Shown: positions 13,883-36,840 of the stretch, in pieces
Layout: each line of letters opens with the position of its first letter
Position numbering within the stretch: the stretch's first letter is position 1
Assembly: GCA_000002445.1 (NCBI GenBank)
Contig: CP000070.1
Span: forward strand, 1,024,001 to 1,088,000
Length of the DNA stretch: 64,000 bases
Origin: Trypanosoma brucei
Taxonomy: Eukaryota
Direction: 5' to 3'
Position numbers and translations under genes: made by a program
Notes under the pieces: model-generated
Database searches by the model: none
What the model was told of the DNA's origin: nothing
Seen by the model: the letters and a program-made list of their open reading frames with translations, nothing else

Positions 13883-14386
13883 ATGCCGTCACCCTTTCAA
13901 CAAACTTTGTTGGCCCGCGCCTACCACTACGTGCATCCGAAGACTGGTCGACCCATTAGACAGTTTCGTCGCTATGGCGATCCGCGTTATATCAATAACG
14001 AAGCGGCACTGATTCGCGGGCAATGGGGCCTCATAACTGCGGATTTCGGTATGGTCACGCAGTCGCAGATGGAGAATGCACGTCTTGCAATCCTCCGTCG
14101 TCTACCCCGCGGGAGCTTCACACTCACAATGCACACCGATTACGAGGAGTTTCCGGTTGTGAAAAAGAGCCCAGAAAGTCGTATGGGTGCTGGTAAGGCG
14201 AACATTCATCATTTCGCGTTCAAGTTCACGACAGGGGTGCCGCTATTTGAGATCATGCCGATATCCGCCCGCCGTCTCAATCAGGCGGAAGCGGAGGGCA
14301 TATTTTTGGCAGGGAGACCGTTCATACCGCTTCAGACGGTTGTGGTGCCACAAGGTCGCGTTGATGAGTATCATGTCTTCAAGTAA
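13883..14386 (+). CDS. mitochondrial ribosomal protein uL16 (bacterial L16 / L10e family)
   Basis: 167 aa. SRMGAGKAN (nt ~14177-14203) matches the uL16 RMGKGKG loop. FEIMPISARRLNQAEAEGIFLAGRPFIPLQTVVV parallels the bacterial L16 C-terminus (YEMDGV...AREAF..AA.KLP). The basic N-terminus is consistent with an organellar protein. Confidence 0.75.
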   Translation: MPSPFQQTLLARAYHYVHPKTGRPIRQFRRYGDPRYINNEAALIRGQWGLITADFGMVTQSQMENARLAILRRLPRGSFTLTMHTDYEEFPVVKKSPESRMGAGKANIHHFAFKFTTGVPLFEIMPISARRLNQAEAEGIFLAGRPFIPLQTVVVPQGRVDEYHVFK

Positions 14387-14810: not shown

Positions 14811-14925
14811 CTTTTTCAAGGCGCTCATTCCTCTTCCTGTATTGTCATCCTTCCTAATGAAATTCCCTATACTTTTATTGTTATTGTGCCTCTCCTACGC
14901 CTCCTCTTTTTCTGTGCGCCACGCC
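14811..14925 (+). promoter_or_regulatory. polypyrimidine tract likely serving polyadenylation of the uL16m mRNA and SL addition for the 15338 gene
   Basis: ~115 nt with more than 80 percent pyrimidine (ctttttcaaggcgctcattcctcttcctgtattgtcatccttcc...cctcctctttttctgtgcgcc). The downstream leader (15060-15330) is conspicuously purine-rich. Confidence 0.4.
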
Positions 14926-15337
14926 ACGGGGTAGAGTCGGCTCGGGATTAAGTTGCTTTGCTCTCCACAGAAAGTTGATTTAGAGTGCAACCTTGAGCTA
15001 GACGGCGGTGTGCAAATCGGGCGAAAGCGAATCCTCGCTAGAAGCTATTTGCACAGACCTCAAGGAACCGAGAAAAAAAACGAATAAGAGGAGAAAACAC
15101 ATTTAACGAATAAAAAGGATCGAGATAATCGAAGGAAATAGAGAAAAGTAACCCTTAGCTTCGTTATTCCCGGAGGAGCCAGAAAGGAAGCCAGTGAAGA
15201 CACTAAGTGGGGAGGAAGCAGCGCAGGGGCGAAGGAAAGGGAAAAGGAGCAAAAAGACGGGGGGGCAGGGAAACACAGCAACAAGGAAAAGACACGGAAG
15301 GCGGAGAGAAGGAAAAGCTGAAAAATAAGAAATTACG

Positions 15338-16300
15338 ATGACGTTGTCGTCCGGGAGCCTCCCCAATTTCTTTCCGAGCCTCGATGGCAGCAACATAAAC
15401 AACTTCCCGGATGAAGCCCCCACACCAATGCTCTCTATGCGCTATGACGACGGTTTCATGAATCTCGAGAACGGATCGCGACATCCTTCTTCGAACTGCA
15501 ATACCCCGAGCGTCCGTTTTCACAATGGCCTCGCCTGGGTGGAGAACTGGCAGCTGTCATCCTCTAACTTGGTACCGCAAACACCTCCGTCAGCGGCCAT
15601 TGGGCCCTCACGTTCCCCATCTTCATTCTCATTGATGAAATACAGCCATGATCCCTACGGTGTGCGTGGTAACAGTCAACCACAAATGCAGCAACGGGCG
15701 GCAGGTTGCATGATGGTGGGCCGTGGGCCTTCTCCGAACGGTTGCTCAAGTCCCGTGATGCGTCTCAGTTGTGTGGAGGATGGGTCATCGCGATTCGCAC
15801 CTGGTCATTCAGCAGTGGTGCCTTCGGCTATTGAACGTCCGCTCTCTCAAACAGGGCAGCGGGAATTCCCTGACGGGCGGCCACGCCGGAAGGGGCGCGC
15901 ACGTGATCGAACTCGTGGCGGGCGTTCTCTAGCTGACGTCCCACCTCCCACGAGTATGCGTTACTTCCCACCGCCACCACCGTGTTTAGAGAGCATGATT
16001 TCTTGTGGCATTTCGCAAGCAACCCTCGTAAAAATCGCGACGAGGTGGTATGAGCGTACCATCGCTTGCGAGCAGTCATATGTTGGCCGCCTGCATGGTG
16101 GTTGCGCTGTTCTCCACGGTGCGGCAGCGTTCCGACGGCAACCCATTCTCGGTAGTTTACAGCCGGTGTTGTGCCCCCGCATGGAACTCACGCTGCAGTT
16201 TACCTTTGATCAGTGGCTAAAAGCAGCGAGCCGATGGTGGGAGACTGTAATCCGCCCAATGACAATGGAATACCGACTGCCACCGCCCTATGTTTTTTAA
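15338..16300 (+). CDS. hypothetical Ser/Pro-rich protein (320 aa)
   Basis: ORF on the coding strand, preceded by a polypyrimidine tract at 14811-14925 and a purine-rich leader. No domain recognised. Moderately low-complexity N-terminal half. Confidence 0.45.
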   Translation: MTLSSGSLPNFFPSLDGSNINNFPDEAPTPMLSMRYDDGFMNLENGSRHPSSNCNTPSVRFHNGLAWVENWQLSSSNLVPQTPPSAAIGPSRSPSSFSLMKYSHDPYGVRGNSQPQMQQRAAGCMMVGRGPSPNGCSSPVMRLSCVEDGSSRFAPGHSAVVPSAIERPLSQTGQREFPDGRPRRKGRARDRTRGGRSLADVPPPTSMRYFPPPPPCLESMISCGISQATLVKIATRWYERTIACEQSYVGRLHGGCAVLHGAAAFRRQPILGSLQPVLCPRMELTLQFTFDQWLKAASRWWETVIRPMTMEYRLPPPYVF

Positions 16301-17978
16301 CCTTTAGAGACACAGAGGGGAAAAGGGAAAAGATTCATTTACATATTTGTTTATTCGTGGGCGTACGAACATTTTCTTTCCGTCTCAGTTGTCAGCAGGT
16401 TTGGTCCACTTTCATTTTTCCTCCGTTCATTCCTGCTTACATCCGCATGGATTAAAACATTCGTAATTTTTTTTATTTGGTTTGTTTCTTCCACAGTCGT
16501 TGTTGTTTCCCCTATACTTACGGCTATCGTGTTTCGCACAGGTAGCTGCAGGCTGTTTGCTACGGGCACCGACATTAGTTTTTTGTTTTCTTTTTCGTTT
16601 GGACGACTTTTTTTTTTTTCCACCTCCCCCTCATTAAGAGTGAGAAATGTTTAACTGTATTGGGAGGTGAACAAATGGGTGTGAATTTAGTGGGGGAATG
16701 AGCGGTAATTTAGGAGAGAGAAGAAAAAAAAAAGGGAGAGAAGGTAAGGTAAAGTAAAGGAAAAGGGAAAAAGAAAAAAAACATTATCGTCAAATGGAGG
16801 TCGTGCACGTATTGGAACGTATACAAATACATTTACTTTTATGATTCATTTGTGTTTAGCACCTCATCTGAGTTACCCGACTACCCTCTTTTTCTCTTTA
16901 GCCACCTTTATTGAAAAAAAAAGGAAAAAAAAAGAAGAAACCCCCAGCGACAAATGTGGTGAAGAAAAGAGGTAAAACGAAAACAAAGCAAAATAACCTC
17001 AAAATAATAGTTATTTAATTATGAAACAGGGGCATAATGTTATACGAAAGGAGGAAAAGAGGTGATGGCGGGGGAACAGGACACACAAGCATACGCACGC
17101 ACACAAGCACACACACGAAAAATGAGAGAGAGAGAGAGAGAAAAAAAAATAAAAGTGAAAGAAATTAATTAAAATAGCCAAATAGAGATGAGGGAAACAA
17201 AGGGAAAGAGAAAAAAATAAAAAAAAAAGAACGAGGAAAGACAAAAATGATAGGAAACTAGCTGAAGTTAGAAACCAACAAGAAGTGAAGGAAACAAACA
17301 TGAATATATATATATATATATTGCAAGTCCAAAAGGGTTTTTTTAAAAAAAGGTTTGTGGGTTGGTGAAGCACCAAGGAAGAGGGGGAAAATGAGACTAG
17401 TTGAGCTGCTAGAAAAGAAAAAAAAATAAAGAAAGCGATTCTTTTCCCCCAAGTTAAATGTACACATACACATACACGCGCATGTAAATTATTACTATTA
17501 TTATTATTATTTTAGTGTGTATAACTTCCACAGTGAAGAAACAAAATTTCCCTGCCGTCATTGCCTGTACCAACTGTTTTTTTTTTTAAAAGAAGAGAAA
17601 TAAATGGGCAAATGAATGAGTAAATGTTTGTTTCGCTAAAGATTGAGAATAGGACGAATGAAAGGAATTTTGTGAAGTGTGTGCGGCTGCGCGCATCCTC
17701 TTCTTTTCTTACTTTAAAAAAAAAACAACACTTTTTTAACTCCTATTTCCCGTCTTCTTTTCCGTTTTTCCGTTTGTTCTCTGTGCTGATGTGCGTGAGG
17801 GGTTATTTTTGTTTTATTTTGTTGCGCATTTTTTGTTTCCTTATTGCTACATGCGCTTGACCCTTTCCTCCCTGTACCCCTTTTTACCAAAAGAAAAAAA
17901 AGAAAAAAAGAAGAAAAATAACAAGTAATGAGAAGGAATGAAAGTGACATGAATAAAATATTGGTTAAATATTTATTT

Positions 17979-18014
17979 GTGTGCGTGCGTGCGTGCGTGT
18001 GTGTGTGTGTGTGT
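17979..18014. repeat. (TGCG)5(TG)9 compound microsatellite
   Basis: Seen directly: gtgtgcgtgcgtgcgtgcgtgtgtgtgtgtgtgtgtgt. Confidence 0.9.
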
Positions 18015-21000
18015 TTTGACCTAATGAAACTGAAGCGGAGTCGAAAGAAAGAAAAAACAAAAAGAGGAGAAACATGTATTTATTGATATGTTACTAATTG
18101 AAGTTGAAAAGTTTCCCCACTGCTTAAGAAGAAGAAGAAACCTACATTTGTACACTTGTACAATCTCTTTTCCTTGTTTTGTTCTGTTTTATTTTACTTT
18201 AAATTTTTTTTGTTTTCTTGCGGCAATGGATTGGATGTGCGCGCGCATTCGGGAGTCTCCCCCTTCTTTTGTTTATTTATTTTTTTTTTTAGATAAGAAA
18301 AAAGAAATCAAGTCACTGAAACCAGACCAACAAATGAACATTGCCATCATTTTTGTTTTGATGCGAACTGGAAGCAATGAATGGGAATTCAATAAACAAG
18401 ACAAAACACACGTGAGTGTTGTGTGTGCAATAAAAAAAATAATAATAATAAAAGGAGGGGAAAGAAGGGGGAGAGGGAACAGGAGAGGAATTCGGGAGAT
18501 GGGGGGAATTCCCCTTTCTTTTATTTTATTTCCATAAGGAACAGAGTTAAACGGAAATAAAAATAAAAAAAATAAAAAAAATAAAATAGTAATAATAATA
18601 TATGTATCCCTCCAATTCCCTCTCTAACTCTCCTCTGAATGACTCCGTGAATGCGCGCGTTATTTTCCTTATTTCTCCGTGCCATTTATAAATTGCTGCT
18701 TTCTGATTCCCTCCTTTCCCCACTTCTAAAAAAAAGAACAAGAAAACAAAAAGAAGGAAAAAAAAAAGAAGAAACTCCACCGGTGTTTTTGAAAACTAAA
18801 GAAATTCAGCGAACCCATTTTGATTTGTTTAGTGGTGTTCGTTTTCTTTTTTTTTTCAATTATTATTTGCGCAGTTTTTCGTTGTTTCATTCCATTAATA
18901 TTCCCCCCCCTCTTTTCTCCCAGTGGAGGTGGGTGGCATTAGGACATGTTAGTGGTGATAATATTGCCGCTGTTTTTTTTTTCTCTTTTTCTTTTTAGCT
19001 GGCTGCACTTTACTTAATTATGTTATGAGTTTCTTTTTTTCTTCTTTTTTTCTTTTTTTTTTTGTATGTGTGTGGACGTGCGGTGATGAGTGTGACGACG
19101 ATGACGGTATGAGAGGACGGTACGGGAAGCACTTTAGTTCTTTTTTCTTTTTACATTAATAATAGTAATAATATAAATAGTAATTAAATGTAATAATAAT
19201 ATTAGTACAATATCAACGGGATGGGGAATCAAAATAATTAAAATGAAATTACTTGCGGCAGCGGCACCACCGCCGTCAGAACCGGAGGCGCGGCAATAAA
19301 AATAAAATTAAAGTGAAAAAAAGAGGAGGAGGAGGAAATGTGCACGGATGTTCCTTTCGTTGTTGTTGTTGTTTTTTTTTTTTTGCTAATTTCCTTATTT
19401 TAATCGCTTATATTATTATTATTATTATTATATTATATTATATTATTACAGCTTTTATTATTATTATTATTGTTATTATCTTTTTATCTTTTTGCTTTTG
19501 GGACCCGCACATCCCCTCTTTTTTTTCTTTATTTTTATTTTTCTTTGCTATATTTTATTGTTGTTTTAGCGTTAGTGAAAGTGGCTGCGGTGTGGAAGAC
19601 CTTTCTTCTTTTTTTTTGAAAATGAAAAAAACGAATTGCACCTGCAAATTCACGAAAGGAAACGAGAGAGTTAAAAAAAAAAAAGAAAGGAGAGAGAGAG
19701 AAAAAAAAAAAATTATTTTTAATAATTTTTTTTTTAAAAAATCACAATAATAGAAGGCAGAGACTCCGAGGCGTTGAACCATTGATGAGTTCAAGTACGA
19801 AAAGTGTCAACGATGTGTAGGATATTTGAGATGCCATAATAACACCACCAACAACAACATTTGTCTTTTTTTTTTTTTAAAACTTCATTCACGTTTGTTT
19901 CTTCATTTTTTTTTTCACTGATTACTCCGTGTGAGTAATTAGCGGGAATAAAAGAAGAGGATAAACAAAAAAAAAGCATAAAGAAGGAAATGTGAGAAAT
20001 GGATGGCTTCATGCACACACACACATATATATATATATATGTTGGAGCACTAGCTAGCCGTTACATTTCATTTTTGTTTGGTTGGCTTTGTTTTATTCCG
20101 TTTTTCTTGTTCAAACGTCCTCTTTTTTTTTTAATTATTTTATTTTATTGCTTTTGTTTGGTTTTGTCTAAAAGTTTCTTTTTTTTTTTTTTGCTTCCGC
20201 TACGGTGTGGAGTTCCACTTGTGACATGAGAGAACAAAAAGACATTTACACATATATTTCTTCAAGACCCCACATAACAGGACTTGATGAAAAAGGAACG
20301 AAACTCAACGCAACAGGAACTAGTGATTAAGCGAATACACGCAAAAAATTATATTAAATATATCTATATATTTATATATCTATATTAGATATATAATAAA
20401 TATATAAAAGATAATATATATATATATATATATATATAAATGTAATGTAATACACAAATATATGCACACGGATGTGATACAGAAACTGACGGTGTCAAGT
20501 GATGGCGGAGACAAGCGAATATGAAAAAAAAATAAACGAGAAAACCGAAACGGCTCGAGAGAAGGTGAAGAAGAAGAAGAGAGAGCAAGAGGGATAATTT
20601 AAGGAAAATAAAATAAAGAAAAAAAAGGGGGGGAAAAATCACGAAACGTGCGGAAGGAGGAAAAAAAAAACGGAACAAAAAGTGAATGAAAAATATTTAG
20701 GGATGTATTCTTTCTTTCTTCCTTTTTTTCTTTTTAGAAATCTTTTGCTTTACCGGGGCCAAAGGTCAGTAAGTAGGCGTCTTCTTTTTTTTTTTTTGTT
20801 TTTTTTTAAAAAAGGGAAAGAGAGAGAGTAATCTTTACTTCGGTGGCTGACGATTCTGTTGTTTTGTTTTTCCCTCTACTGTTGGTTTCGATCGACACCC
20901 CATTTTTTATTTCAGTCGCTCTCACCTTTTTCTTTGTTGTTTTTTTTTTCGTTTTGTTCTATTCATTTCGTCAACTTTACTTTCTTGAACAGACAAAAAT

Positions 21001-21223
21001 CTTTATGTGTCTGTGGAGGAACTGATGTTGTGCCTAGTCAGTTAATTTTTTTTGTTGTCGTTGCAATTCGCACTATTGTGTCCTTATGTTTTTTTCCTCA
21101 TTTTCCCTTTTTTGTAAAACAAAAAGAAGAAAAATTGTGTTTTACAATTTGATTGATTTAATTACTTGTTTTATTCCACCTTCCACTTGTTTCTTTTCTT
21201 TTTCTTTTTGCCCACCTTTTGAG

Positions 21224-21276
21224 ATATAAATATAAATATAAATATAAATATAAATATAAATATATATATATATATT
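21224..21276. repeat. (ATAAAT)6 hexanucleotide repeat running into (TA)7
   Basis: Seen directly: gagatataaatataaatataaatataaatataaatatatatatatatatt. Confidence 0.9.
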
Positions 21277-22999
21277 TATTTGTATATCATGTTTTGCTTT
21301 CAGATGTTTTGTTACTGTTGCTGCCACTTGTGAAAGCGCACATGTTGCCAAAATTCAGGCCTCCCCCCTTTTCCCCTCTTTTTTTTTCTCGTCTGTTTCG
21401 GTTTTTATGTCGTTTTTTTTTTTTAGTCTGTGTTATTTGTGCGTCTTCCTTTTTTTTCTTTTGAAGAAAAAATTTCTCTTCCGTTTTGTTTTTATTTTCA
21501 TTGCGTTGGCTGCAATTATCTTTTTTTTTTGTTTTTTTATTCCCGATATTGATTGTTTTTGTTATTGCCGCTGAGGCCGCCATATCCGCCAACGCACAAA
21601 CAAAAGGACAAAAGGAAGAAGAAGAAAAAGAAAAAAAGATAAACAATAAATAAATGAAGAATTAATTATATTTATATACACTAAATGTAATGATTATTGC
21701 GTACGAAGAAGTAAACGAGAAAATGCATGTTTTTTTTTTAAAGGAAAGAGGAAGAAGAAGAAAATGAAAATGAAAAGGGAAAGAGGAAGAGGAGGAGGAG
21801 GAGGAAGAGGAAGGAGAGGGATAAAAAAGAATTTAACATATGCAAGTGCACGGGAAAACGCACATAATTTGCTACAGTGTTTCACAACTATGCACGTTTT
21901 TTTTTCTTTTTTACACGTCGACTAATTTCCCTTTAAAATTCTTCTTCTTTTCAGAGTTTCTCAATTGCTTCTGCTTATGTTTGCCCACGAGTTATTTCGT
22001 ATGAACCCGTTGGTAATATTTCGATTTGTTATATTTATATTTCACTTTTACACCGCTGCAGTTTTTCATATCTTTGCGATTACTCCTTCTTTTCTTTTCT
22101 ATTTCCATTTCTGCTTTCGTTCTTTTCTTTTTCTCTTTTTTTTTAAAATGCTCTTAGTTAAAGCTACCTTCTACCATCTTTTTAGTGCGTGATTTACTCA
22201 TATAAATAATATATACATATCTGCTTAATCTCATTATTTGAAGGGAATAAAAGGGTCCCTCAGATGAGGAAGGGAATTTACAAGTAAAATAAGTTAAATT
22301 AAAAAAAATGAAGGGGAAATAAATTAAGGCATTATGACATTTAGGTGGTTGCAACACCGCCCCATAATTTAAAAAAAATTCATTGGTGCGATTGCTGGCC
22401 CTTTTGTTTTTCTTTTTGAGTTATTGCTGCTGCTGTTTTTGCTTGTTTAAATAATGCATGGACTCCCTGGTATATTCCTCCACATTGACCTTGGGAAGAA
22501 AATGTAATTACACTAATTATTGTGGTGATAATGCAGAGGCGGAATGAACGAATTACACGTGGTCACCCATTTTTAAAAAAAATCTCCCATCTCCTTTTTT
22601 TTTTGAAAAATGAGTTTTTACTCCTTTGATCGTCCTTTGTTCTCTCTTTGTTCTTCATTTATTTATTTATTTTTGTGTGCTCACATTGCTTCCCTAATGG
22701 AGGGGTTGGATTACAAGAAGAGGAAAGTCGTGAGAAGAAAGGTTTTAAATCTTAATTTAGTAAAGTGGCGATTGTTTATTTACGCTAGTGAGTATAGGCA
22801 CCGTTGCGCAAAGCGGCTTTCAAAGCAAAAATAGCAGCCGTGACAAGGAGGTGCGAGGAGGGAAAAAGAATATATATATATATATATATATATTTATTTA
22901 CAAAGAAAGGAAAGAAAAACTGGGGGAGGGGGTTTGCATACCCAACGACACACTGGATTCGTTGACGTTGGTTGTTGCGCTTCATAGGGTTCCACTTAA

Positions 23000-25714
23000 A
23001 TGACCATCACTGTGGATCTATTTGGTGAGGCGGATTGCAATGATGGCGAGGGGCACATGTGGTCCGCCGATGTTGCGAAATTCACTGAAGTGCCTGAAGT
23101 GCCGCGTGTGTTTGCCGATTCTCAGCATTACATTACTTACACCACAAAAAAGGGCAACTCTCTGAGGGTGGTAAAGCGCTTGAACCTTGCCAGAGGCACT
23201 GTGCGTGGCCACACAACACCAATTCATTCCGTTCGCTTTGTAAATTATCGAAGCAACGTCGCAGCGTCTGCCAGCAAGGGGGAGTTTTTCGTTTGGGTTG
23301 TGACAGACAGCGGGGAGGGAGGAACCGGGCGCCCTTCAGCTGATGCAGAGCTTACAATTAACATGTACTTTAGGCTCTCCGACCCCGTCACCATTTCGTG
23401 CTTTTCATTCTTTATTAATGCAGAAAATAAGCGGCCTGACGTATTGGTTCTGCACGACCAGCAGGCGAGCATCCTTGATTCCTCCGCCCTCATTGCGCTA
23501 TACCGTGACACCCCTCTCACTGCGACGCTTAAGCAGAACAGCACGGCTCTGCGGAAGTTGGCTAGTAATGTTACTGCAAATACTCTCTGCTCTGTGGGGT
23601 CAGGTGGCTGGTTTGCCTTCACTACGGATTCAAATATGGTCGCTGCTTGCACTTTGCAGAACCGCAACACACCACCATGGTCCTGCTGTGAGGGAGCTCC
23701 TGTTCACTCACTCCACCTGCTGGATACACCCCACGCTGAGAAGACAACTCTCGTTGCTTCCTGTTCGCGGGTAGTATATCAGTGGTCGCTGAGTGGGGCG
23801 TCAGAGCCGACATTGCTACGAAAGTTTGCTGTTGACGGTACCATCGTGTCGCTGGAGGGCTCGCGCGATTCATTTGCAGTGTTCAATGACAAACGGAAGT
23901 TAGCGGTGGTTCGGATCCAGTCTCCGAAGGAATTTACGTGCACACGGTATACTCTACCGTGGCAGGTGCGCCGGCGTGGGACTTGCTTCAACTGCGTAGG
24001 CGGAGAGTCTTATATAATGGCTGACAATGACGATCGTTTGACAGTCATGCAGCTTAAGGCCAATGCTTCCAGTGGCGCTGGCAAGCGGGAAAGTCCCTTG
24101 AACACACGTAGGAGTCCTGCTGGAGCAGCGAAGCCGGCAAGTAATGTGTTGGCCCCCACCACTGGCACAAAGATAAAGTCGAACTCGTCCACTCAACCGA
24201 CTGGTAGTATTATCGCTAACCTGGTTAATCGCCTTGGGATATGCAGTGTTGGAATGGCACCCCCAGCATCGTCTAACACATCCTCACCAGCAACCGCAAC
24301 GGCAACAGGAAGTGCACCCGATGTAACTTCTGCTTCAGCGAATGCTACGCAGCGTGGAGCTTTGCATGGTTACAGCAACCAACCCGTAACGGCGGGTCTT
24401 GGTAGCGGCAGTAGTGCGGGCGCATCCAAAGTATTCACACCGGCCTTGTCGAAATCGTTAGCGGCTTCTGCCGGCCGCGGTCACGGTAGTTCTTCCATCA
24501 GTCCCGCAAGCGCCCAGCTGTCGGCCGCTGTCAATGCCAATAACCTCACGCACTCTTCACGGCCAGCGCTTCACAACGCCTCTTTGCCACAGGCTCCAAC
24601 TGATGGCGTGCTCGCAACTGTTTTGCAGCAAACTGAAGATGAGGTGCACCAGGAATTGGAGCGACTTGATTCCGTCATGAAAAACACACTGCAAGTACTT
24701 CAGTTGACTCCCGACACCATCCACCGGGCACATGAACAGTTGTTAAGCTTAAGCCTTGAAGCGCAGATGACAGAGCTACAGCAACAGCAAGAACGGCAGA
24801 AAAATGCATCCTTGTCCAACTCTGCAGGGTTTACTCCCTTCGAGACTTGTGTGCTTTTATCTATTCTTGATCCACTTTCACAAAGCATCGCGAACGGATT
24901 AACCCGTGGTGTTGAGGATGCTATGATGGCCAATCTTGAACATGGAGTGCGGCACGCTTTGGTAAACCGTGCGCGGACTACACAGAAGAGTGCAATGAAG
25001 GCACGCCTTGATGAAGTACTGAAGGAGAGTTCCTCACAGTTTCTTGCGCAGGTAGAACAGACTGTGCGTAACGTTGTGGAAAATGAGCTTGCGGAAGTGT
25101 TTGGAGATATTAATGGTTTACTGACGGCGCTAGAGAATGATAACGTTCGACTTCAGCGGGAATTGGAGGCGATTATGGCCTCGGATGTTATCACCGAAAT
25201 GAAGAAAACTCGAGAAGAACTTGAGTCGTTGCGCGAGGCAGTGACGAACCAACAGTTGGCCATTGGAACGGGGTCACAGCTAGTGAGTCGTCCCTCTCCC
25301 GAGACCGTGTTATCAACAACAACTGAATTAATACAACAGCAACAATATCGCCAAGGATTGGAGTACATTATTATGGCGGAACAACCTCAACTGGTTCTTC
25401 AGCTCTTCGTTGCCCTGAAAAAGAAAACTGAGAATGTATATTCGGCACTGATTGAGGATCCCGCAACCCCTAATGACGTATGGCTTCGTGTTATTGTGCA
25501 AATTACCGGCGCGGCGACGTCTGAGAAGGATATTGATGCGGTTGTGGGTGTTCTCATCGACATCCTTTCGGAGAGGGAACAGCTGCTGCAAAAGACGGGC
25601 CCGACCGCAAAACTAACTGAAAGTTTGCATTCGTTCGTAACTGTGGGGAAATCTGGGAGAAAGTGCTCCGCGGGGCTGCGAAACTTCAAGAACTTGGAGA
25701 AGTTACTGCCATAG
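23000..25714 (+). CDS. hypothetical protein (904 aa): structured N-terminal region, Ser/Ala/Thr-rich linker, C-terminal coiled coil
   Basis: Long ORF immediately after the low-complexity tract. The N-terminal ~330 aa are non-repetitive (possibly beta-rich/propeller-like: GEFFVWVVTD, VASCSRVVYQWSL). Low-complexity residues 360-520. The heptad-like, E/Q/L-rich C-terminal ~350 aa (ELERLDSVMKNTLQVLQL..., REELESLREAVTNQQLA) indicate coiled coil. Confidence 0.55.
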   Translation: MTITVDLFGEADCNDGEGHMWSADVAKFTEVPEVPRVFADSQHYITYTTKKGNSLRVVKRLNLARGTVRGHTTPIHSVRFVNYRSNVAASASKGEFFVWVVTDSGEGGTGRPSADAELTINMYFRLSDPVTISCFSFFINAENKRPDVLVLHDQQASILDSSALIALYRDTPLTATLKQNSTALRKLASNVTANTLCSVGSGGWFAFTTDSNMVAACTLQNRNTPPWSCCEGAPVHSLHLLDTPHAEKTTLVASCSRVVYQWSLSGASEPTLLRKFAVDGTIVSLEGSRDSFAVFNDKRKLAVVRIQSPKEFTCTRYTLPWQVRRRGTCFNCVGGESYIMADNDDRLTVMQLKANASSGAGKRESPLNTRRSPAGAAKPASNVLAPTTGTKIKSNSSTQPTGSIIANLVNRLGICSVGMAPPASSNTSSPATATATGSAPDVTSASANATQRGALHGYSNQPVTAGLGSGSSAGASKVFTPALSKSLAASAGRGHGSSSISPASAQLSAAVNANNLTHSSRPALHNASLPQAPTDGVLATVLQQTEDEVHQELERLDSVMKNTLQVLQLTPDTIHRAHEQLLSLSLEAQMTELQQQQERQKNASLSNSAGFTPFETCVLLSILDPLSQSIANGLTRGVEDAMMANLEHGVRHALVNRARTTQKSAMKARLDEVLKESSSQFLAQVEQTVRNVVENELAEVFGDINGLLTALENDNVRLQRELEAIMASDVITEMKKTREELESLREAVTNQQLAIGTGSQLVSRPSPETVLSTTTELIQQQQYRQGLEYIIMAEQPQLVLQLFVALKKKTENVYSALIEDPATPNDVWLRVIVQITGAATSEKDIDAVVGVLIDILSEREQLLQKTGPTAKLTESLHSFVTVGKSGRKCSAGLRNFKNLEKLLP

Positions 25715-27208: not shown

Positions 27209-30200
27209 ATGCGACGTACTTTCAGTCGCTACGCACGGTTCGCGGTGTGTCAGCAGTCTACTGGTGCAGGGACCATAGAGGGCCCTCTCCGTTTGCGCTC
27301 GGCAGATCAGACAGTAGTGTGGTGTTGCGCCGCAGCTGGGCGGAGGTCCTGGTTTTGCCTGCTTCCCAACTCGGTACGCGCGGGGTTGCATGAGCCACGC
27401 CGGTTCGCGTCAACGAGGGCCACGAATTCGCGCAAACCAGCGAGGGTTGCGCGATCGGGCGCCTCTTCACGAGCGCCACGCAAGGGCCCCAGACATTCAC
27501 AGGGGTTGAAGTCATCGCAGGAAAGTGAGGGAGAGTTTATGGCTACTACTTCAGATGATGACTTTGGACCAATGGCAGAGGGAGCAGCGGAAGAGGAGAG
27601 TGCAGGAGATTGTGATGCTGGTGTTGGCAGTAGTTTGACAGGTGGGCGAGAGACAACCGAATCATCCAACGTAGCGGCGGCGCCAGAGGAAGAAGGGGAA
27701 GGAGTTGGCACTACCGAAGGTGTTGAGACGGAGGGAGGTAAGCCTGGTAGGAGTGAGGAGGATCCACTGAATCTCCGAGTAGCCACGCTTATGCAGCAAC
27801 CAGGAAAGGCGTTCCGTGTAATTGCCGTGTCATATTCAGCTAAGCGGGAGTTAAATTTTCCCATTACTTTTGAGGACATTGCCTCTGGTACAACTCTAAA
27901 CTGTCGGTTGGAGGACGTACACACAACTTACATGAATTGGGTTCGTCAGTTTTGTGCGTCATGGGTTATGCTCTTTGTCCCAACCCTCTCAGCAGCCAGC
28001 GCCGTCCTACTGGAGAATGCCGTAGTGTACAGTAGGGTGGAACGTACTGTCTCTAACTCTCACCGTGGCTCTCCTGCACCCAAACAGTGGGAGGAACCGG
28101 ATCATGTGCTGGTTTCGTACAGCAAAATGCGTGAGGTGCTATGCAAAGTAAAGCGGGATGAGCAGGTAGACAAGGAGCTTGTTAGTAACACTGTACTCAG
28201 TGCATTTGCGGAGGACTGGAAGAGCTTTATTCACTCAACAGCATCTTGCTCACCGGCATCAATTGTGACCGCATCGTTTGATTTCCGCCCCAACGGCGGG
28301 CATCTCCAGTTGAACAAGAAATTTTTGCACGCACAGTTGACAACAGCGGCGATGACACTGTTGAGGCATGTTGCACGTAAGGGATCGTCTGCCAGCGGCA
28401 CTCCATGTAGTTCTTCCACTAAGGAGGTTACATCTGGCGCGAACAACTCTGTAGCTGATGATATTCGCAGGAAGGAATCTTGGTTGTTAATTTTTGTTTC
28501 CGCACCTGCGGGGAGCGCAACGAGTTTTCTAGGGCCCAGAGCAGTCAACTTGGGCGTACCACCTATGCAAGATCTTCTTACTGGTGAGTTTGTGGATCCC
28601 CTTCTCCTTGGGGGGAGGAACGTCATTTACATTATCGGTTCCGGAACGGCGGCAGAAGCCTTTTCAAAAATACCATCTGTGCGTAAGGGCAAACGTCAGA
28701 TATCGATACTATTGAAGGATATAGAGAATCAACTGGGGCCGTTTCGGGCGAGTCGCCCGACGTTAACCACCACGCTTATACAGGCGTTAGATACGTTTTC
28801 GCGGCACACGTGGATTGGGTTAATGAAGGAGGAGGATGGCACAGTTCGAGTGCCCCGGGCTCCTCAGAGCTTTGTTCATCTGCACCGGCGAAGCGTTACG
28901 CGTGAGGTGTTGCCTAAGTTTCTTGAGTCGACGTTAGGACATATTTCTCACCACAACTCCGCCTATGGAGTCGCAGAGGTGGGAATGGGCGGTGCGGCTG
29001 GCGCTGCGGGTGCAAACGCGCTCCTGCAGCTGGGAAAGTTAAACCGCAAGGTAGATGAGCATATAAAGGCGATTTTCAACAATGCTGAACGACTCGAGAA
29101 GGAGAAGGCACTCCGCGAGAGTTTGCGTCGTAGCAACTGTTTCTTTGTAGATGTCAAGTCGGCGAACATCTCGGCGGCACGTCGAGCTGACAATCCCTTT
29201 TCTACACGAAATGGTATATTGGAGTTTCACGGCCAACTTTGGGCGACCCTTGGCATGGGGGAGACGGCACGAGCGGGAAAGACAACAGGTTGTCCACCAG
29301 TGAAGACGCTCACAGCGCAGCTCGCTCCCAATGGCGACGTGCAGGCTTTCGTTAGACCCGAGGAATGCATTCCGATGGAATTACCTACTGGCTCTAGTGA
29401 TACAAGCACCATAAGGCATAAGGGGATATCATTAGCTGCATCAGCATCTAGTGCCTCTAGTGGGATAATCATTGCATGGGACGTGAAGCGTGCGCTGCTT
29501 TTTCTTCGCGGCAGCAACAGACTTCGAGAATTTCTCCTTAACGGTGGTAGGATTTGGTGTGCACAGTACGCACAGTACCTACTTAAAGGGTTCAACAACC
29601 ACAACCTCACCACAATGGAGCGGACACTCCTTCAGTACCACACGGTGCAGACCAAGTTGCATCCTCTGGAGAAGCTGAAGATAATTTTTGAGAAACAACT
29701 TGATATTGCGGTGAATACTCGGCAGCTTATATCGATCGTGCATCGTATGGATGGTCTTCTTGCTTGTACTGAAATGGAGTTACGTGGGCTTCAGATAGCT
29801 CCACAAGAAGACATTACAGCCTTTGCCCGTAACCTGAAAAGGACCCGGGAGGAACTGGAGAAGGCAGTTAATGATAAAATCATGGTGTTCACGGAAGGAA
29901 TGGATAATGAAGTGAGACGTAAGATTAACGTTCGCTCTACGCAGGATATCAGCACAATCATCTACGGTGGCGCGTTGTGTCGGCATCTGGGTACGCGATA
30001 CGTGTCACCTCACATTCCCCGCATTCCTGTGACGGCAATCTTTCCACATGCAGTATGCCGCCTAACAACAACCCCTGTCCCTGAGCTGTACACAAACGCC
30101 GAGAACCTCCTTGGGGTCAAAGGAACAGGCAACAGCGGTAACAACAATAATGCTAACAAGATTGCTGAAGCAGCGACCATTACGGCCAACGCAGTGAATA

Positions 30201-32158
30201 CAACCCTTAAGATTATTGACAAGTATCTGAAGGACAATACATTGGATAATTTGCTCAACAATACGGCTATTGTGGTAGTGACATGTAAGGTACGGACCAG
30301 TAGCTTTCTGGAGGTGATCACCATCCATTGCCCTTCTAGTGATCCTAATGATGAACTGCGGCACACTGTTGCGATCGATGACGTCTTACCAGTAATGAGC
30401 TCACCCGAGCTGGTTACCATAACTCAACTCAAGGAGAAAATTGCCGCCTACAGGCCTTTACGAGCGCTCCAACCACTCAAGAAGTACGGCAGACGCAGTT
30501 ATGACCTTCGAAATCTCGTCATTCTCACTCATTGTTCCTTCGACAAGACGGCTGTGTTGGTAGACACGGGCATTATACAGACGATCGCCGAAACTGTTCT
30601 TGGTAAAGAAAATGAAGAACGGTCCCTCCTCGAACGTGTCTGTTTCTGTGACATCAATCGCGCCTTTCCACCTCCCCCAGAGGGAGGTGATTCGTTTGAG
30701 AATGATTTCTTAGGACTTGTGAATGGTGCTGAACAGGCCGGCGTGTCCTCCCGCAGCAACTGGGAGGCTTTCACGCGGAACTTTGCTGCGGTTGGAGGGT
30801 TTGAGGACACACGCAGGGCGTTGGTGCTGCATTGTGCCTCGTTAGTTGGTACGGCAAGAGACCCATTCCGTACGGCCCATCCCTTGCCCTTTGCGTTAGT
30901 GGGGTTTAATGGTCAACAGGCGCTTGGGTTACATGGGCAAGAGCGGGCCTCGACGCGTGGGATGCTGTGGATGGTTACTCCCGAACGGCTACACCCGTTG
31001 CTTCATCGCTCACTGCGTGGCCGCAGTGCGTCATCCGGCGCGGACGCCATTGAGCGGATCAATGTGTTGCTTTCGAATGAAAAACAGGTGGATCTCTCCT
31101 TTTTCAAGGCCCTTCAGCAATTGCGTTTCATGGAAAAGCAAATGCAGCTCTTCGAAGAAGGTGCTCTGTTTCGGGCAGTTTTACCGGAGTGCAAAAATCG
31201 TGTTCACGGTGAGTTCTGCCATGTCGTTACTGCGACGGGTCGACTTTCTTCACAGTCGCCTAACCTGCAGAACATTCCCAAGGAAGATTTGAGGTGCCTA
31301 ATCGTCTCTCGCTTCGGTCGGCGTGCTGGTCGTATGATTGAGGCGGACTATAGTCAGTTGGAAGTTGTGGTGCTCGCTGCTCTCAGTCGGGACGCCCGCA
31401 TGTTGCAGGAACTTAACGACAATGTGGATTTCCATTGCCTACGTGTTTCTCTCATGACAAAAGAGCCCTACGAGGATGTAATACACAAAGTGAAGCAGGT
31501 GAAGGATCCCCACTATATTCAGCTACGGCAGCAGGCGAAAACATTTTCGTTTCAACGTCAATATGGTGCAGGGACATCAACCATAGCCACAACGACGGGG
31601 CTTAGTGAGACGGAGGTTGTGCGGCTGATTGCCGCCGAGGAACAGCATTACAAGGACTTGGGACGCTACTATAGGCTTGTAACGGACTGTGTAGAGGCGG
31701 GTGCCGATCGCTTGTTGCAGTTGCGTACATTAGATGCAACATCTTGGCCCCCCACGATGCGTCGAATGGTGCTTTTGACTGAACCGATGCATTATTTTGT
31801 GGTACCAACGGGAAGCAAATTTGACTTCACGAAGGATAAGAAGGCTGTGCCACGACTGAAAAATTACCCCGTTCAGGGACTGGCTGGGGAAATTGTTCAA
31901 ATTATGTGTGGAAAGATTATTCGTCGCTTCTATGCAAAACGTAACTACAACGATAAGGCGTTTCTTGTTAATACCGTTCACGATTGCGTTTGGATTGATG
32001 CCCACGAATCCGTTGCAGACGAGGTAATGGACGACGTATCCGCCATAATGTCCTCCACCTCCGAAGTCATTAGTAGTTTATGGCCAGGCGTAAAGTTGGA
32101 TGTCCCATTCAAAGCAGAGATTCATATAGGACCATCACTAGGGGAGTTGTCCAGGTAG
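27209..32158 (+). CDS. POLIC: family A (Pol I-like) DNA polymerase, POLIC-like, with ~1000-aa N-terminal extension
   Basis: C-terminal polymerase domain carries all Pol A motifs. TATGRLSSQSPNLQNIPK is at nt ~31229-31280. Motif A EADYSQLEVVVLAALSRD is at ~31341-31390. Motif B (O-helix) RQQAKTFSFQRQYGAG has R, K, F and Y at Klenow-equivalent spacing. NYPVQGLAGEI and motif C VHDCVWID are at 31976-31999. The length of 1649 aa matches what I recall for T. brucei POLIC (unverified). The N-terminus MRRTFSRYARFAV looks like a mitochondrial presequence. Confidence 0.85.
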   Translation: MRRTFSRYARFAVCQQSTGAGTIEGPLRLRSADQTVVWCCAAAGRRSWFCLLPNSVRAGLHEPRRFASTRATNSRKPARVARSGASSRAPRKGPRHSQGLKSSQESEGEFMATTSDDDFGPMAEGAAEEESAGDCDAGVGSSLTGGRETTESSNVAAAPEEEGEGVGTTEGVETEGGKPGRSEEDPLNLRVATLMQQPGKAFRVIAVSYSAKRELNFPITFEDIASGTTLNCRLEDVHTTYMNWVRQFCASWVMLFVPTLSAASAVLLENAVVYSRVERTVSNSHRGSPAPKQWEEPDHVLVSYSKMREVLCKVKRDEQVDKELVSNTVLSAFAEDWKSFIHSTASCSPASIVTASFDFRPNGGHLQLNKKFLHAQLTTAAMTLLRHVARKGSSASGTPCSSSTKEVTSGANNSVADDIRRKESWLLIFVSAPAGSATSFLGPRAVNLGVPPMQDLLTGEFVDPLLLGGRNVIYIIGSGTAAEAFSKIPSVRKGKRQISILLKDIENQLGPFRASRPTLTTTLIQALDTFSRHTWIGLMKEEDGTVRVPRAPQSFVHLHRRSVTREVLPKFLESTLGHISHHNSAYGVAEVGMGGAAGAAGANALLQLGKLNRKVDEHIKAIFNNAERLEKEKALRESLRRSNCFFVDVKSANISAARRADNPFSTRNGILEFHGQLWATLGMGETARAGKTTGCPPVKTLTAQLAPNGDVQAFVRPEECIPMELPTGSSDTSTIRHKGISLAASASSASSGIIIAWDVKRALLFLRGSNRLREFLLNGGRIWCAQYAQYLLKGFNNHNLTTMERTLLQYHTVQTKLHPLEKLKIIFEKQLDIAVNTRQLISIVHRMDGLLACTEMELRGLQIAPQEDITAFARNLKRTREELEKAVNDKIMVFTEGMDNEVRRKINVRSTQDISTIIYGGALCRHLGTRYVSPHIPRIPVTAIFPHAVCRLTTTPVPELYTNAENLLGVKGTGNSGNNNNANKIAEAATITANAVNTTLKIIDKYLKDNTLDNLLNNTAIVVVTCKVRTSSFLEVITIHCPSSDPNDELRHTVAIDDVLPVMSSPELVTITQLKEKIAAYRPLRALQPLKKYGRRSYDLRNLVILTHCSFDKTAVLVDTGIIQTIAETVLGKENEERSLLERVCFCDINRAFPPPPEGGDSFENDFLGLVNGAEQAGVSSRSNWEAFTRNFAAVGGFEDTRRALVLHCASLVGTARDPFRTAHPLPFALVGFNGQQALGLHGQERASTRGMLWMVTPERLHPLLHRSLRGRSASSGADAIERINVLLSNEKQVDLSFFKALQQLRFMEKQMQLFEEGALFRAVLPECKNRVHGEFCHVVTATGRLSSQSPNLQNIPKEDLRCLIVSRFGRRAGRMIEADYSQLEVVVLAALSRDARMLQELNDNVDFHCLRVSLMTKEPYEDVIHKVKQVKDPHYIQLRQQAKTFSFQRQYGAGTSTIATTTGLSETEVVRLIAAEEQHYKDLGRYYRLVTDCVEAGADRLLQLRTLDATSWPPTMRRMVLLTEPMHYFVVPTGSKFDFTKDKKAVPRLKNYPVQGLAGEIVQIMCGKIIRRFYAKRNYNDKAFLVNTVHDCVWIDAHESVADEVMDDVSAIMSSTSEVISSLWPGVKLDVPFKAEIHIGPSLGELSR

Positions 32159-36573: not shown

Positions 36574-36840
36574 GTGGAAAAACGTAGGCAACTTGCGGTA
36601 GCGATGAGTAACACACGCCAGCGCGTGGGCGGGGGTAAAGCATCCTTCACGCAGCGTACGATGAATTTTTTCCGCACGTACAAACGCGACTTGTTCTTTA
36701 CTTGCGTTGCTTTCATGGCTATAGGCACTGTGGCTAGACGTGAGTTGATGGTACGTGGTGTAGTGTCGCCGCCACAGAAAATTGAAGCGGTTCCGAGGGT
36801 GGAGCGGGAGTTTGGCTCGAAGCGTCAACGGAGTGAATGA
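36574..36840 (+). CDS. possible small single-pass membrane protein (78-88 aa; likely start at Met 36604, MSNTRQRVGGG...)
   Basis: Short ORF on the coding strand in the 3.4-kb spacer between GS and PP2C. It has a basic N-terminus and one hydrophobic helix (LFFTCVAFMAIGTVA), and it is not low-complexity. Pyrimidine-rich tract at 36290-36370 upstream. Could equally be chance. Confidence 0.3.
   Translation: MEKRRQLAVAMSNTRQRVGGGKASFTQRTMNFFRTYKRDLFFTCVAFMAIGTVARRELMVRGVVSPPQKIEAVPRVEREFGSKRQRSE

What the first reader, a model, noticed from the sequence alone, without database searches (positions are those of the whole stretch)
16300..22990. Anomalous 6.7-kb gene-free AT-rich low-complexity tract inside a unidirectional gene cluster
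Typical spacers in this window are 0.4-3.4 kb. This one is 6.7 kb and compositionally distinct. It has alternating purine-rich and pyrimidine-rich blocks rather than consistent coding-strand pyrimidine bias. Dozens of A or T runs of 9 or more are present, with several different microsatellite classes. There is no conserved-looking ORF. Candidate explanations are four. (a) An unusually long 3' UTR or long non-coding transcript. (b) An internal transcription termination / re-initiation boundary of a head-to-tail PTU junction (base J / H3.V / H2A.Z marked). (c) A replication origin or fragile/recombinogenic site. (d) An assembly-collapsed repeat region.
Basis: seen in the sequence. Interest (0 to 1): 0.55.

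Follow-up and report, generated by a model that had tools for sequence, protein, structure and literature searches.

The report
Very long low-complexity trypanosome 3' UTR
The 6.7-kb AT-rich "empty" tract is real, but it is mostly the unusually long, low-complexity 3' untranslated region of the upstream Trypanosoma brucei gene Tb927.7.3970, a known kind of feature in this parasite whose only mildly new aspect is that its great length is kept across the genus.

Summary
The window is T. brucei TREU927 chromosome 7, about 1,024,001-1,088,000. Positions 16301-22999 are 6,699 bp without a credible ORF, at 33% GC against 39-50% for the other 15 spacers. There are 36 A/T runs of 9 or more (5.9 expected), many microsatellites, and alternating purine and pyrimidine blocks.

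It is not an assembly artefact: the T. b. gambiense assembly is collinear at 6,680 bp. It holds no tandem array, tRNA, Rfam RNA, conserved ORF or dispersed repeat.

Published transcript mapping assigns it to the upstream gene Tb927.7.3970:
- Read-weighted mean 3' UTR is 3,966 nt, against a genome median of 388 nt.
- The most-used poly(A) site lies 2,254 nt after the stop, with poly(A)-site dispersion of 2,157 nt.
- The transcript length tabulated in a 2022 paper is 5,589 nt for an 873-nt CDS.

The last ~2 kb is unresolved: a longer isoform or a separate non-coding RNA.

A 5.2-6.7 kb tract follows the orthologous gene in T. vivax, T. cruzi and T. melophagium, with no sequence conservation.

Verdict: a member of the known class of long low-complexity 3' UTRs in T. 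brucei. A transcription boundary or replication origin has no support but cannot be excluded without chromatin data. Interest is low to moderate.

The parts
14827..14975 (+). Predicted polypyrimidine tract (14827-14912) and first AG acceptors (~14935-14972) for spliced-leader addition to Tb927.7.3970 mRNA
   Evidence: Read directly from the sequence. This is an inference from the trypanosome PPT-AG rule (Kolev 2010), not mapped data.
15338..16300 (+). CDS of Tb927.7.3970: conserved hypothetical protein, 320 aa here, annotated as 290 aa in TREU927. It has no Pfam domain and orthologues were found only in Trypanosoma.
   Evidence: The N-terminus MxLSSGSxxNFFP is conserved in T. congolense and T. 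vivax.
16301..18554 (+). Proximal 3' UTR, up to the most-used mapped poly(A) site (3' UTR 2,254 nt; chr7 position 1,042,554)
   Evidence: Kolev 2010 Table S13 row. The coordinate offset of 1,024,000 is verified by the rows for Tb927.7.3940 and Tb927.7.4000, which match ORF ends at 9466 and 34966. The site abuts a genomic A-rich run at 18555-18590, so internal oligo(dT) priming is possible. A pyrimidine-rich stretch at 18600-18727 lies at the right distance for a real coupled site.
18555..20560 (+). Middle 3' UTR, up to the inferred end of the tabulated 5,589-nt transcript (~20.52-20.56 kb)
   Evidence: TranscriptLength 5589 counted from the predicted acceptor at ~14936-14972. The end point is inferred. 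It lies 150-250 nt upstream of strong polypyrimidine tracts at 20704-20735 and 20778-20807.
20704..21572 (+). Cluster of sense-strand polypyrimidine tracts: candidate internal trans-splice signals, and drivers of upstream polyadenylation
   Evidence: T fraction rises from 0.295 in the first third to 0.386 in the last third.
20820..22560 (+). Distal segment of unresolved status: either the end of a ~6.3-kb 3' UTR isoform or a separate trans-spliced non-coding RNA
   Evidence: The PAS dispersion arithmetic requires a large share of tags far downstream of 18554. No data available here separate the two readings.
22583..22702 (+). Predicted polypyrimidine tracts (22583-22604 and 22630-22695) and AG acceptor (~22702) of Tb927.7.3980
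   Evidence: Sequence and tract list. A 5' UTR of ~300 nt fits the tabulated 3,910-nt transcript for a 2,715-nt CDS.
23000..25714 (+). CDS of Tb927.7.3980 (Tc40-antigen-like, 904 aa)

Best explanation
The tract is transcribed with the rest of this unidirectional RNA polymerase II gene cluster. At least its first ~4.2 kb, and possibly ~6.3 kb, is the 3' untranslated region of Tb927.7.3970.

Trypanosome poly(A) sites are set by the next usable polypyrimidine tract and AG splice acceptor downstream. The tract contains several internal pyrimidine tracts, so the mRNA ends at several widely spaced sites: ~18.55 kb, ~20.5 kb and probably ~22.5 kb. Use of an internal acceptor would also release the distal part as a non-coding, spliced and polyadenylated RNA.

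The AT-rich, homopolymer-, poly(AU)- and polypurine-rich composition is that of the known class of long low-complexity 3' UTRs in T. brucei. Those UTRs carry many redundant binding sites for RNA-binding proteins that set mRNA stability, export, translation and poly(A)-site choice.

Shown: the anatomy, mapped poly(A) sites assigned to this gene across kilobases, the tabulated transcript length, and cross-species retention of length. Inferred: the exact isoform ends, the regulatory role, and the reason for length retention.
For: 1. Identity. The flanking proteins match T. brucei TREU927 chr7 genes exactly. The gene numbers Tb927.7.3960-3990 follow from consecutive GenBank accessions plus the coordinate match to Kolev Table S13.

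2. Kolev 2010 Table S13 (column meaning). For Tb927.7.3970 the weighted mean 3' UTR is 3,965.7 nt, the most-used PAS is at 2,254 nt and the dispersion is 2,157.5 nt. The genome median 3' UTR is 388 nt with a range to ~6,000 nt, and neighbouring genes have dispersions of 2-400 nt.

3. The transcript length in PMC9639853 Table S6 is 5,589 nt for an 873-nt CDS. The same table lists RBP10 as 2,303 nt although its real 3' UTR is 7.3 kb, so these values can underestimate long UTRs.

4. The mRNA is real and fairly abundant: 15 copies per cell against a median of 3. It is detected in RNA-seq and enriched with EIF4E3, alongside GPEET, UBP1/2, ZFP1 and ALPH1 mRNAs.

5. Composition matches the known class. 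ZC3H28-bound long 3' UTRs are enriched in poly(AU) and polypurine tracts. DRBD18-bound long 3' UTRs contain internal polypyrimidine tracts. This tract has 15-16 strict polypurine tracts, 8-11 strict polypyrimidine tracts and several (AT)n arrays.

6. Synteny. A 5.2-kb (T. vivax), 5.4-5.7-kb (three T. cruzi assemblies), 5.7-kb (T. melophagium) or 6.68-kb (T. b. gambiense) spacer directly follows the orthologue. Neighbouring spacers there are 0.4-1.5 kb. In T. melophagium the tract stays attached to the 3970 orthologue even though an extra gene sits between it and the Tc40-like gene.

7. GC skew stays positive through the tract, as in the flanks. There is no tRNA, Rfam RNA, tandem array, ORF or dispersed repeat.
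Against: - The most-used PAS abuts a genome-encoded A-rich run (18555-18590) and could be an oligo(dT) internal-priming artefact. The same applies to other A-runs in the tract, so the PAS dispersion may be partly artefactual.
- No Northern blot, long-read or coverage data for this locus could be read, so a single continuous 6-7 kb mRNA is not shown.
- PAS tags in the distal 2 kb would have been assigned to this gene even if they belong to a separate non-coding RNA.
- There is no sequence conservation beyond T. brucei subspecies. Divergence from T. b. gambiense is high: 19.9 substitutions per kb and 221 indel columns, against 2-8 per kb in CDS. Specific conserved regulatory elements are therefore not demonstrated.
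- No known regulatory motif shows sense-strand enrichment.
- Chromatin state was not examined.
Confidence: 0.8

Rival explanations
1. The distal third (~20.8-22.6 kb), or more, is a separate trans-spliced, polyadenylated long non-coding RNA rather than part of the 3970 mRNA. It would be produced by use of the internal polypyrimidine tracts at 20.7-21.5 kb. This can coexist with the best explanation.
For: The tabulated transcript (5,589 nt) appears to end near 20.5 kb, just upstream of strong PPTs. T. brucei has over 1,000 annotated novel or long non-coding transcripts, many overlapping UTRs, and non-coding RNAs arising from within 3' UTRs have been observed.
Against: No lncRNA annotation for this locus could be retrieved; the supplements were not held. 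Annotated transcript lengths underestimate known long UTRs such as RBP10. lncRNA abundance tracks the upstream gene genome-wide, which suggests many such lncRNAs are UTR extensions.
Confidence: 0.35
2. The tract is, or contains, an internal head-to-tail boundary of polycistronic transcription: termination marked by base J/H3.V followed by re-initiation marked by H2A.Z/H4K10ac.
For: It is the longest and most AT-rich spacer in the window, and dense poly(dA:dT) runs disfavour nucleosomes (established knowledge). Its position is conserved across Trypanosoma. This would also fit a conserved boundary.
Against: Mapped poly(A) sites and the tabulated mRNA of the upstream gene run at least ~4.2 kb into it. 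No tRNA or snRNA gene is present, though these often accompany internal start sites. None of Tb927.7.3960-3990 occurs in any held supplementary file of Kolev 2010 other than the abundance and PAS-dispersion tables. This is weak evidence: I did not confirm that Table S14 was among the files held, and it may list coordinates rather than IDs. Both flanking genes are expressed at similar, ordinary levels of 15 and 8 RNAs per cell.
Confidence: 0.08
3. The tract functions at the DNA level as a replication origin, fragile site or recombination hot spot.
For: It is AT-rich, microsatellite-dense DNA with a very high indel rate between subspecies (221 indel columns in 6.7 kb). Short-read assemblies break inside it in several species.
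Against: From my own knowledge (Tiengwe et al. 2012), mapped T. brucei origins coincide with boundaries of transcription units; this locus lies inside a unidirectional cluster with no boundary evidence. Gene order around it is stable across the genus, which argues against a rearrangement hot spot. Microsatellite instability alone explains the indels. A centromere is excluded: those are ~147-bp arrays of 20 to over 100 kb, and none is present.
Confidence: 0.04
4. The tract is an assembly artefact: a collapsed or mis-assembled repeat.
For: Low-complexity sequence. The T. equiperdum OVI assembly breaks at a T-run (~19381) and an A-run (~20524). One T. cruzi assembly has 3.7 kb of N in the equivalent spacer.
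Against: The T. b. gambiense DAL972 chromosome is collinear along the whole tract, with only small microsatellite indels and nearly identical length (6,680 against 6,699 bp). The two T. equiperdum contig ends match it at 96-100% identity. No array is longer than ~90 bp and there is no internal duplication. Comparable lengths appear in three other species, in five further assemblies.
Confidence: 0.02

Closest known systems
Long 3' UTRs of T. brucei regulator mRNAs, e.g. RBP10 (7.3-kb 3' UTR) and DRBD12 (~8.4-kb mRNA)
   Same: - Multi-kilobase, AT-rich, low-complexity 3' UTR inside a polycistronic unit.
- Internal polypyrimidine tracts and several alternative poly(A) sites.
- mRNA of a small protein.
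   Different: No reporter, Northern blot or RNA-binding-protein data exist for this UTR. The encoded protein has no recognisable RNA-binding or kinase domain. Developmental regulation is not documented.
ZC3H28-bound and DRBD18-bound mRNA classes (long 3' UTRs with poly(AU), polypurine and polypyrimidine tracts)
   Same: The composition matches the enriched features: (AT)n arrays, 15-16 strict polypurine tracts and internal polypyrimidine tracts.
   Different: Binding of these proteins to Tb927.7.3970 mRNA could not be checked, because the supplementary tables were not held.
Intergenic or UTR-overlapping lncRNAs of T. brucei (Kolev 2010 novel transcripts; Guegan 2022 set, e.g. grumpy)
   Same: The distal ~2 kb lies downstream of strong internal splice signals and has no coding potential.
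   Different: No annotated lncRNA was found for this locus with the sources available, and no snoRNA or structured element was detected.
Head-to-tail boundaries of polycistronic transcription units in T. brucei
   Same: An unusually long non-coding gap between two same-strand genes.
   Different: The upstream gene's mapped transcript runs through most of the gap. There is no tRNA gene, and chromatin marks were not tested.

Membership tests
Long low-complexity 3' UTR of a T. brucei mRNA | Lies directly downstream of a stop codon, on the transcribed strand of a unidirectional gene cluster, with no intervening gene | tested here: met
   All credible ORFs in the 64-kb window are on the + strand. 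There is no credible ORF, tRNA or Rfam RNA in 16301-22999.
Long low-complexity 3' UTR of a T. brucei mRNA | Poly(A) sites of the upstream gene mapped kilobases downstream of its stop codon | tested here: met
   Kolev 2010 Table S13: mean 3' UTR 3,966 nt, most-used site at 2,254 nt, dispersion 2,157 nt. Tabulated transcript length 5,589 nt. Caveat: internal priming at genomic A-runs is possible.
Long low-complexity 3' UTR of a T. brucei mRNA | Poly(AU), polypurine, poly(U) and internal polypyrimidine tracts | tested here: met
   class description.
Long low-complexity 3' UTR of a T. brucei mRNA | A full-length mRNA containing both the CDS and the distal UTR, seen on a Northern blot or in long reads | not testable with these tools
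   No read-level or blot data were available.
Long low-complexity 3' UTR of a T. brucei mRNA | Regulatory activity of UTR fragments in reporter assays, or binding by ZC3H28, DRBD18 or RBP10 | tested here: inconclusive
   The ZC3H28 and DRBD18 tables were not held. In an RBP10-paper supplementary table whose header I did not read, the row's last two ratio-like values are 2.4 and 2.2; if they are pull-down ratios this would be about 2.2-2.4-fold enrichment. Only one UA(U)6 motif lies on the sense strand.
Internal (head-to-tail) PTU boundary | H2A.Z, H2B.V, H4K10ac or BDF3 at the start; H3.V, H4.V or base J at the end | not testable with these tools
   No chromatin data were accessible.
Internal (head-to-tail) PTU boundary | Bidirectional 5'-triphosphate RNA tags, or listing as a transcription-unit boundary | tested here: inconclusive
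   None of the four flanking gene IDs occurs in any held supplementary file of Kolev 2010 other than the abundance and PAS-dispersion tables. I did not confirm that Table S14 was among the files held, and its format is unknown.
Internal (head-to-tail) PTU boundary | Frequent association with a tRNA or snRNA gene | tested here: not met
   No tRNA in the whole window. No Rfam hit above threshold.
T. brucei centromere | Array of ~147-bp AT-rich tandem repeats (20 to over 100 kb), between gene clusters, with degenerate retroelements | tested here: not met
   The longest tandem array is ~90 bp and no period near 147 was found. Genes on both sides are on the same strand. Family definition from PMC3292466.
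Replication origin | ORC1/CDC6 binding and an MFA-seq peak | not testable with these tools
   No such data were accessible.
Assembly-collapsed repeat | Length or order not reproduced in independent assemblies; internal long repeats | tested here: not met
   T. b. gambiense is collinear, 6,680 against 6,699 bp. There are no long repeats.

The most novel reading that the evidence does not exclude
Retention of a tract over 5 kb directly behind the 3970 orthologue is striking. It has persisted across the divergence of T. brucei, T. vivax, T. cruzi and T. melophagium despite complete sequence turnover and a very high indel rate. This could mean that length or low-complexity character itself is selected. 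Two forms are possible. One is a DNA- or chromatin-level element conserved across the genus, such as a nucleosome-depleted zone, an intra-unit polymerase slow-down or termination and re-initiation zone, or a replication or 3D-domain boundary. The other is an RNA scaffold that sequesters RNA-binding proteins or delays processing, independent of the protein it follows.
Probability: 0.12. Interest if true: 0.6.

Novelty: new member of a known kind. Interest (0 to 1): 0.25.

Why it matters
This adds one more example to the small set of extremely long 3' UTRs in T. brucei. It is about 10-16 times the median length, with poly(A)-site dispersion far greater than its neighbours, and it belongs to an uncharacterised protein found only in Trypanosoma in these searches.

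Such UTRs are where trypanosomes concentrate post-transcriptional control. The gene is therefore a reasonable candidate regulator or tightly regulated factor, and a useful test substrate for factors that govern poly(A)-site choice, such as DRBD18 and RBSR1.

The modest new point is evolutionary: UTR length is kept across the genus while the sequence is not. This bears on whether long trypanosome UTRs are selected for redundant short motifs or for length as such. It also explains why short-read assemblies break at this locus, and why four spurious ORFs were annotated there in T. b. gambiense.

Tried and rejected
- Known RNA families and tRNAs: only three sub-threshold Rfam hits (E 0.26-0.89) and no tRNA.
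- Hidden protein genes: 20 ATG ORFs of 50 aa or more are all low complexity. tblastn of 123 stop-to-stop ORFs against the T. vivax, T. cruzi and T. melophagium spacers gave nothing below E = 0.01. The four T. b. gambiense ORFs are disrupted in TREU927.
- Decayed remnant of the mannitol-dehydrogenase gene found at this position in T. grayi and T. melophagium: no tblastn signal in T. brucei, T. vivax or T. cruzi.
- Conserved nucleotide blocks across species: with low-complexity filtering, only hits of 38 nt or less survive, except one gapped 63-column AT-rich match; the best E-values are 0.001-0.004. Without filtering, only microsatellite matches appear.
- Dispersed repeat or retroelement shared with the rest of the window: no hits.
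- Sense-strand enrichment of known regulatory motifs (RBP10 UA(U)6, AUUUA, PUF UGUA and others): none convincing.
- Excess RNA secondary structure from pairing of purine and pyrimidine blocks: z = -1.87 and 0.00, against -0.06 for a control spacer, which is not significant. My own larger folding script timed out.
- Orthologues of Tb927.7.3970 outside Trypanosoma, to test Leishmania synteny: none found with a profile search. The Leptomonas contig starts 1.36 kb upstream of the Tc40-like gene.
- Supplementary tables for ZC3H28, DRBD18, the lncRNA catalogue and the ARE/GRE study: either not held or lacking the gene.
- The permissive polypyrimidine-tract definition (one purine allowed between pyrimidines) proved uninformative in AT-repeat DNA.

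Full report
**Identity of the window.** Exact-sequence look-ups place the window in Trypanosoma brucei, subgenus Trypanozoon.
- ORF 13883-14386 is the mitochondrial L16 protein.
- ORF 15338-16300 is a conserved hypothetical protein, annotated as 290 aa in TREU927 and 320 aa in T. b. gambiense and T. equiperdum.
- ORF 23000-25714 is the Tc40-antigen-like 'immunodominant antigen'.
- ORF 27209-32158 is mitochondrial DNA polymerase I protein C, an exact match to TREU927.
- Consecutive GenBank accessions and the coordinate match below make these Tb927.7.3960, .3970, .3980 and .3990.
- Rows of Kolev 2010 Table S13 fix the coordinates. The most-used poly(A) positions minus the 3' UTR lengths for Tb927.7.3940.3970 and .4000 give stop codons at 1,033,466, 1,040,300 and 1,058,966. 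These equal window positions 9466, 16300 and 34966, which are the ends of three window ORFs.
- The window is therefore chr7 (v4) 1,024,001-1,088,000.

- The spacer 16301-22999 is 6,699 bp. The other 15 spacers are 420-3,422 bp.
- GC is 33.2%, against 38.7-49.8% in other spacers and 45-56% in the ORFs taken as CDS, all but one 50-56%.
- It holds 36 A or T runs of 9 or more. A first-order Markov model gives 5.9 +/- 2.6 and a third-order model gives 17.5 +/- 4.3.
- It holds dozens of short microsatellites of many classes, none longer than ~90 bp.
- Purine-rich and pyrimidine-rich blocks alternate. The variance of purine fraction in 100-nt bins is 0.030 against 0.0036 expected (also visible).
- Other long spacers in the window show the same trait more weakly (0.015-0.019).
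- A falls from 0.35 to 0.29 and T rises from 0.30 to 0.39 along the tract.

**What it is not.**
- No tRNA and no Rfam family reach threshold.
- No ORF has coding character. The four short 'genes' annotated in this spacer in T. b. gambiense are interrupted in TREU927.
- No repeat is shared with the rest of the window.
- It is not a collapsed repeat. The T. b. gambiense chromosome aligns collinearly over the whole tract, 6,680 against 6,699 bp, differing by 131 substitutions and many small microsatellite indels.
- It is not a centromere. Those are ~147-bp arrays of 20 to over 100 kb, and none is present.

**Transcript evidence from the literature.**
- Kolev et al. 2010 mapped poly(A) sites genome-wide. 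The median 3' UTR is 388 nt, the range reaches ~6,000 nt, and the median distance from a poly(A) site to the downstream splice site is 142 nt.
- For Tb927.7.3970, their Table S13 gives a read-weighted mean 3' UTR of 3,965.7 nt. The most-used site is at 2,254 nt (window 18554) and the dispersion is 2,157.5 nt. Genes in neighbouring rows have dispersions of 2-400 nt.
- The mean lies 1,712 nt downstream of the most-used site while the dispersion is 2,157 nt. Since no site can lie more than 4,445 nt beyond it, at least ~44% of tags must lie downstream of 18.55 kb.
- Unless nearly all tags sit at ~20.5 kb, some must lie beyond that point. This is my arithmetic on the published numbers.
- A 2022 paper from the Clayton laboratory tabulates a transcript length of 5,589 nt for this gene (873-nt CDS) and 3,910 nt for Tb927.7.3980. 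I take these to be database (TriTrypDB) transcript lengths; the table does not state its source.
- The sequence upstream of the ATG has a polypyrimidine tract at 14827-14912 and AG dinucleotides at ~14935-14972. Counting 5,589 nt from there puts the tabulated 3' end at ~20.52-20.56 kb.
- That end point is an A-rich stretch 150-250 nt upstream of strong polypyrimidine tracts at 20704-20735 and 20778-20807. This is the geometry expected for coupled polyadenylation and trans-splicing. The step is inferred, not read from data.
- The same table lists RBP10 at 2,303 nt although its 3' UTR is experimentally 7.3 kb. Such values can underestimate long UTRs.
- The mRNA is present at about 15 copies per procyclic cell, against a median of 3.
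- It is enriched in EIF4E3 pull-downs.
- After RBSR1 depletion it rises in rRNA-depleted RNA but not in poly(A)+ RNA, as RBP10, ZFP1 and PUF9 mRNAs do; those three show a small or significant fall in poly(A)+ RNA rather than no change.

**The downstream gene.** Pyrimidine tracts at 22583-22604 and 22630-22695 are followed by AG at ~22702. This predicts a ~300-nt 5' UTR for Tb927.7.3980, which fits its 3,910-nt tabulated transcript. A distal poly(A) site for the upstream transcript would be expected near 22.56 kb, giving a 3' UTR of ~6.3 kb. Whether 20.8-22.56 kb belongs to a long 3970 isoform or to a separate spliced non-coding RNA cannot be decided here.

**Comparison with the known class.**
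- T. brucei has a recognised set of very long 3' UTRs: RBP10 at 7.3 kb, with at least six independently acting regulatory regions, and DRBD12 with an ~8.4-kb mRNA.
- Those UTRs contain internal polypyrimidine tracts. DRBD18 is thought to mask these tracts, and its loss yields shortened mRNAs and non-coding fragments.
- ZC3H28 preferentially binds long mRNAs whose 3' UTRs carry poly(AU) and polypurine low-complexity tracts.
- This tract has exactly that composition.
- I could not check binding of these proteins, because the tables were not held.

**Evolution.**
- The same gene order (TUTase, L16, 3970 orthologue, long spacer, Tc40-like, POLIC, glutathione synthetase) is found in T. vivax with a 5,233-bp spacer.
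- T. cruzi has spacers of 5,380, 5,399 and 5,654 bp in three assemblies. A fourth has 3.7 kb of N.
- T. b. gambiense has 6,680 bp.
- Neighbouring spacers in these loci are 0.4-1.5 kb, and in T. vivax and T. cruzi they too keep similar lengths to their T. brucei counterparts.
- In T. melophagium a 5.7-kb, 30%-GC tract follows the 3970 orthologue. A mannitol-dehydrogenase-family gene comes next, and only then the Tc40-like gene. T. grayi has the same extra gene.
- The tract therefore travels with the 3' side of the 3970 orthologue. No remnant of the extra gene exists in T. brucei.
- No nucleotide or peptide conservation is detectable between species in the tract.
- Between T. brucei subspecies it diverges faster (19.9 substitutions per kb, 221 indel columns) than CDS (2-8 per kb) or other spacers (2-15 per kb).
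- Length is retained while sequence turns over. Only in T. brucei and T. melophagium is the tract clearly more AT-rich than neighbouring spacers.
- Orthologues of the protein were found only in Trypanosoma, so Leishmania synteny could not be tested.

**Rivals.**
- A head-to-tail transcription boundary or a replication origin cannot be excluded for the distal part without chromatin or replication data.
- Nothing found here supports them, however. The upstream gene's mapped transcript covers most of the tract.
- No tRNA gene is present.
- The flanking gene IDs occur in no held supplementary file of Kolev 2010 other than the abundance and PAS-dispersion tables.
- RNA folding shows no significant excess structure.

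**Verdict.** This is a member of a known kind, the long low-complexity trypanosome 3' UTR with dispersed poly(A) sites. It is already implicit in public transcript annotation. The genus-wide retention of length is a modest new observation. Interest is about 0.25.

Noticed in passing
window 15338-15427: TREU927 annotates Tb927.7.3970 as 290 aa, starting at the ATG at 15428. The upstream ATG at 15338 gives 320 aa, as annotated in T. b. gambiense and T. equiperdum. The extra N-terminus (MTLSSGSLPNFFPSLDGSN...) is conserved in T. congolense and T. vivax, so the longer model is probably correct.
   Followed up: partly
L006 5069-5428, 6396-6827, 7045-7374, 8676-8993 (about window 18.0-18.4, 19.4-19.8, 20.0-20.35, 21.65-22.0 kb): Four short 'genes' (105-143 aa) are annotated inside the tract in T. 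b. gambiense DAL972. They are low-complexity translations and carry stops or frameshifts in TREU927, so they are almost certainly spurious.
   Followed up: yes
L009 1691-3199 (T. grayi); L004 6942-8460 (T. melophagium): A mannitol-dehydrogenase-family gene (Pfam PF01232/PF08125) sits immediately upstream of the Tc40-like gene in T. grayi and T. melophagium. It is absent, with no detectable remnant, in T. brucei, T. vivax and T. cruzi. The T. melophagium copy has an in-frame stop and a frame change near its 5' end, so it may be decaying. I did not establish whether this is lineage-specific gain or loss, or horizontal transfer.
   Followed up: partly
window ~19381 and ~20524; L005, L007, L008, L010, L013, L014: Short-read assemblies break inside or at the edge of this tract in several species. 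T. equiperdum OVI contigs end at a T-run and start at an A-run, with ~1.1 kb missing. T. conorhini and Leptomonas seymouri contigs end within 0.7-1.4 kb of the flanking genes. One T. cruzi assembly has 3,724 N here.
   Followed up: yes
window 34967-38388 and 40630-43402: Two other long spacers (3.4 and 2.8 kb) show the same purine and pyrimidine block alternation at about half the strength. They are likely further long UTRs. I did not examine them.
   Followed up: no
window 15338-16300 (Tb927.7.3970 mRNA): In published RBSR1 RNAi data this mRNA rises in rRNA-depleted RNA (log2 1.36, padj 4e-12) but not in poly(A)+ RNA (0.18, not significant). It groups with RBP10, ZFP1, PUF9 and ZC3H32, which I know as long-UTR regulator mRNAs. 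This may reflect accumulation of unprocessed or non-adenylated forms.
   Followed up: no
window 18555-18590: The most-used published poly(A) site of Tb927.7.3970 (chr7 1,042,554 = window 18554) lies exactly at the start of a genome-encoded A-rich run (AAATAAAAATAAAAAAAATAAAAAAAATAAAA). It may be an oligo(dT) internal-priming artefact rather than a true cleavage site.
   Followed up: partly
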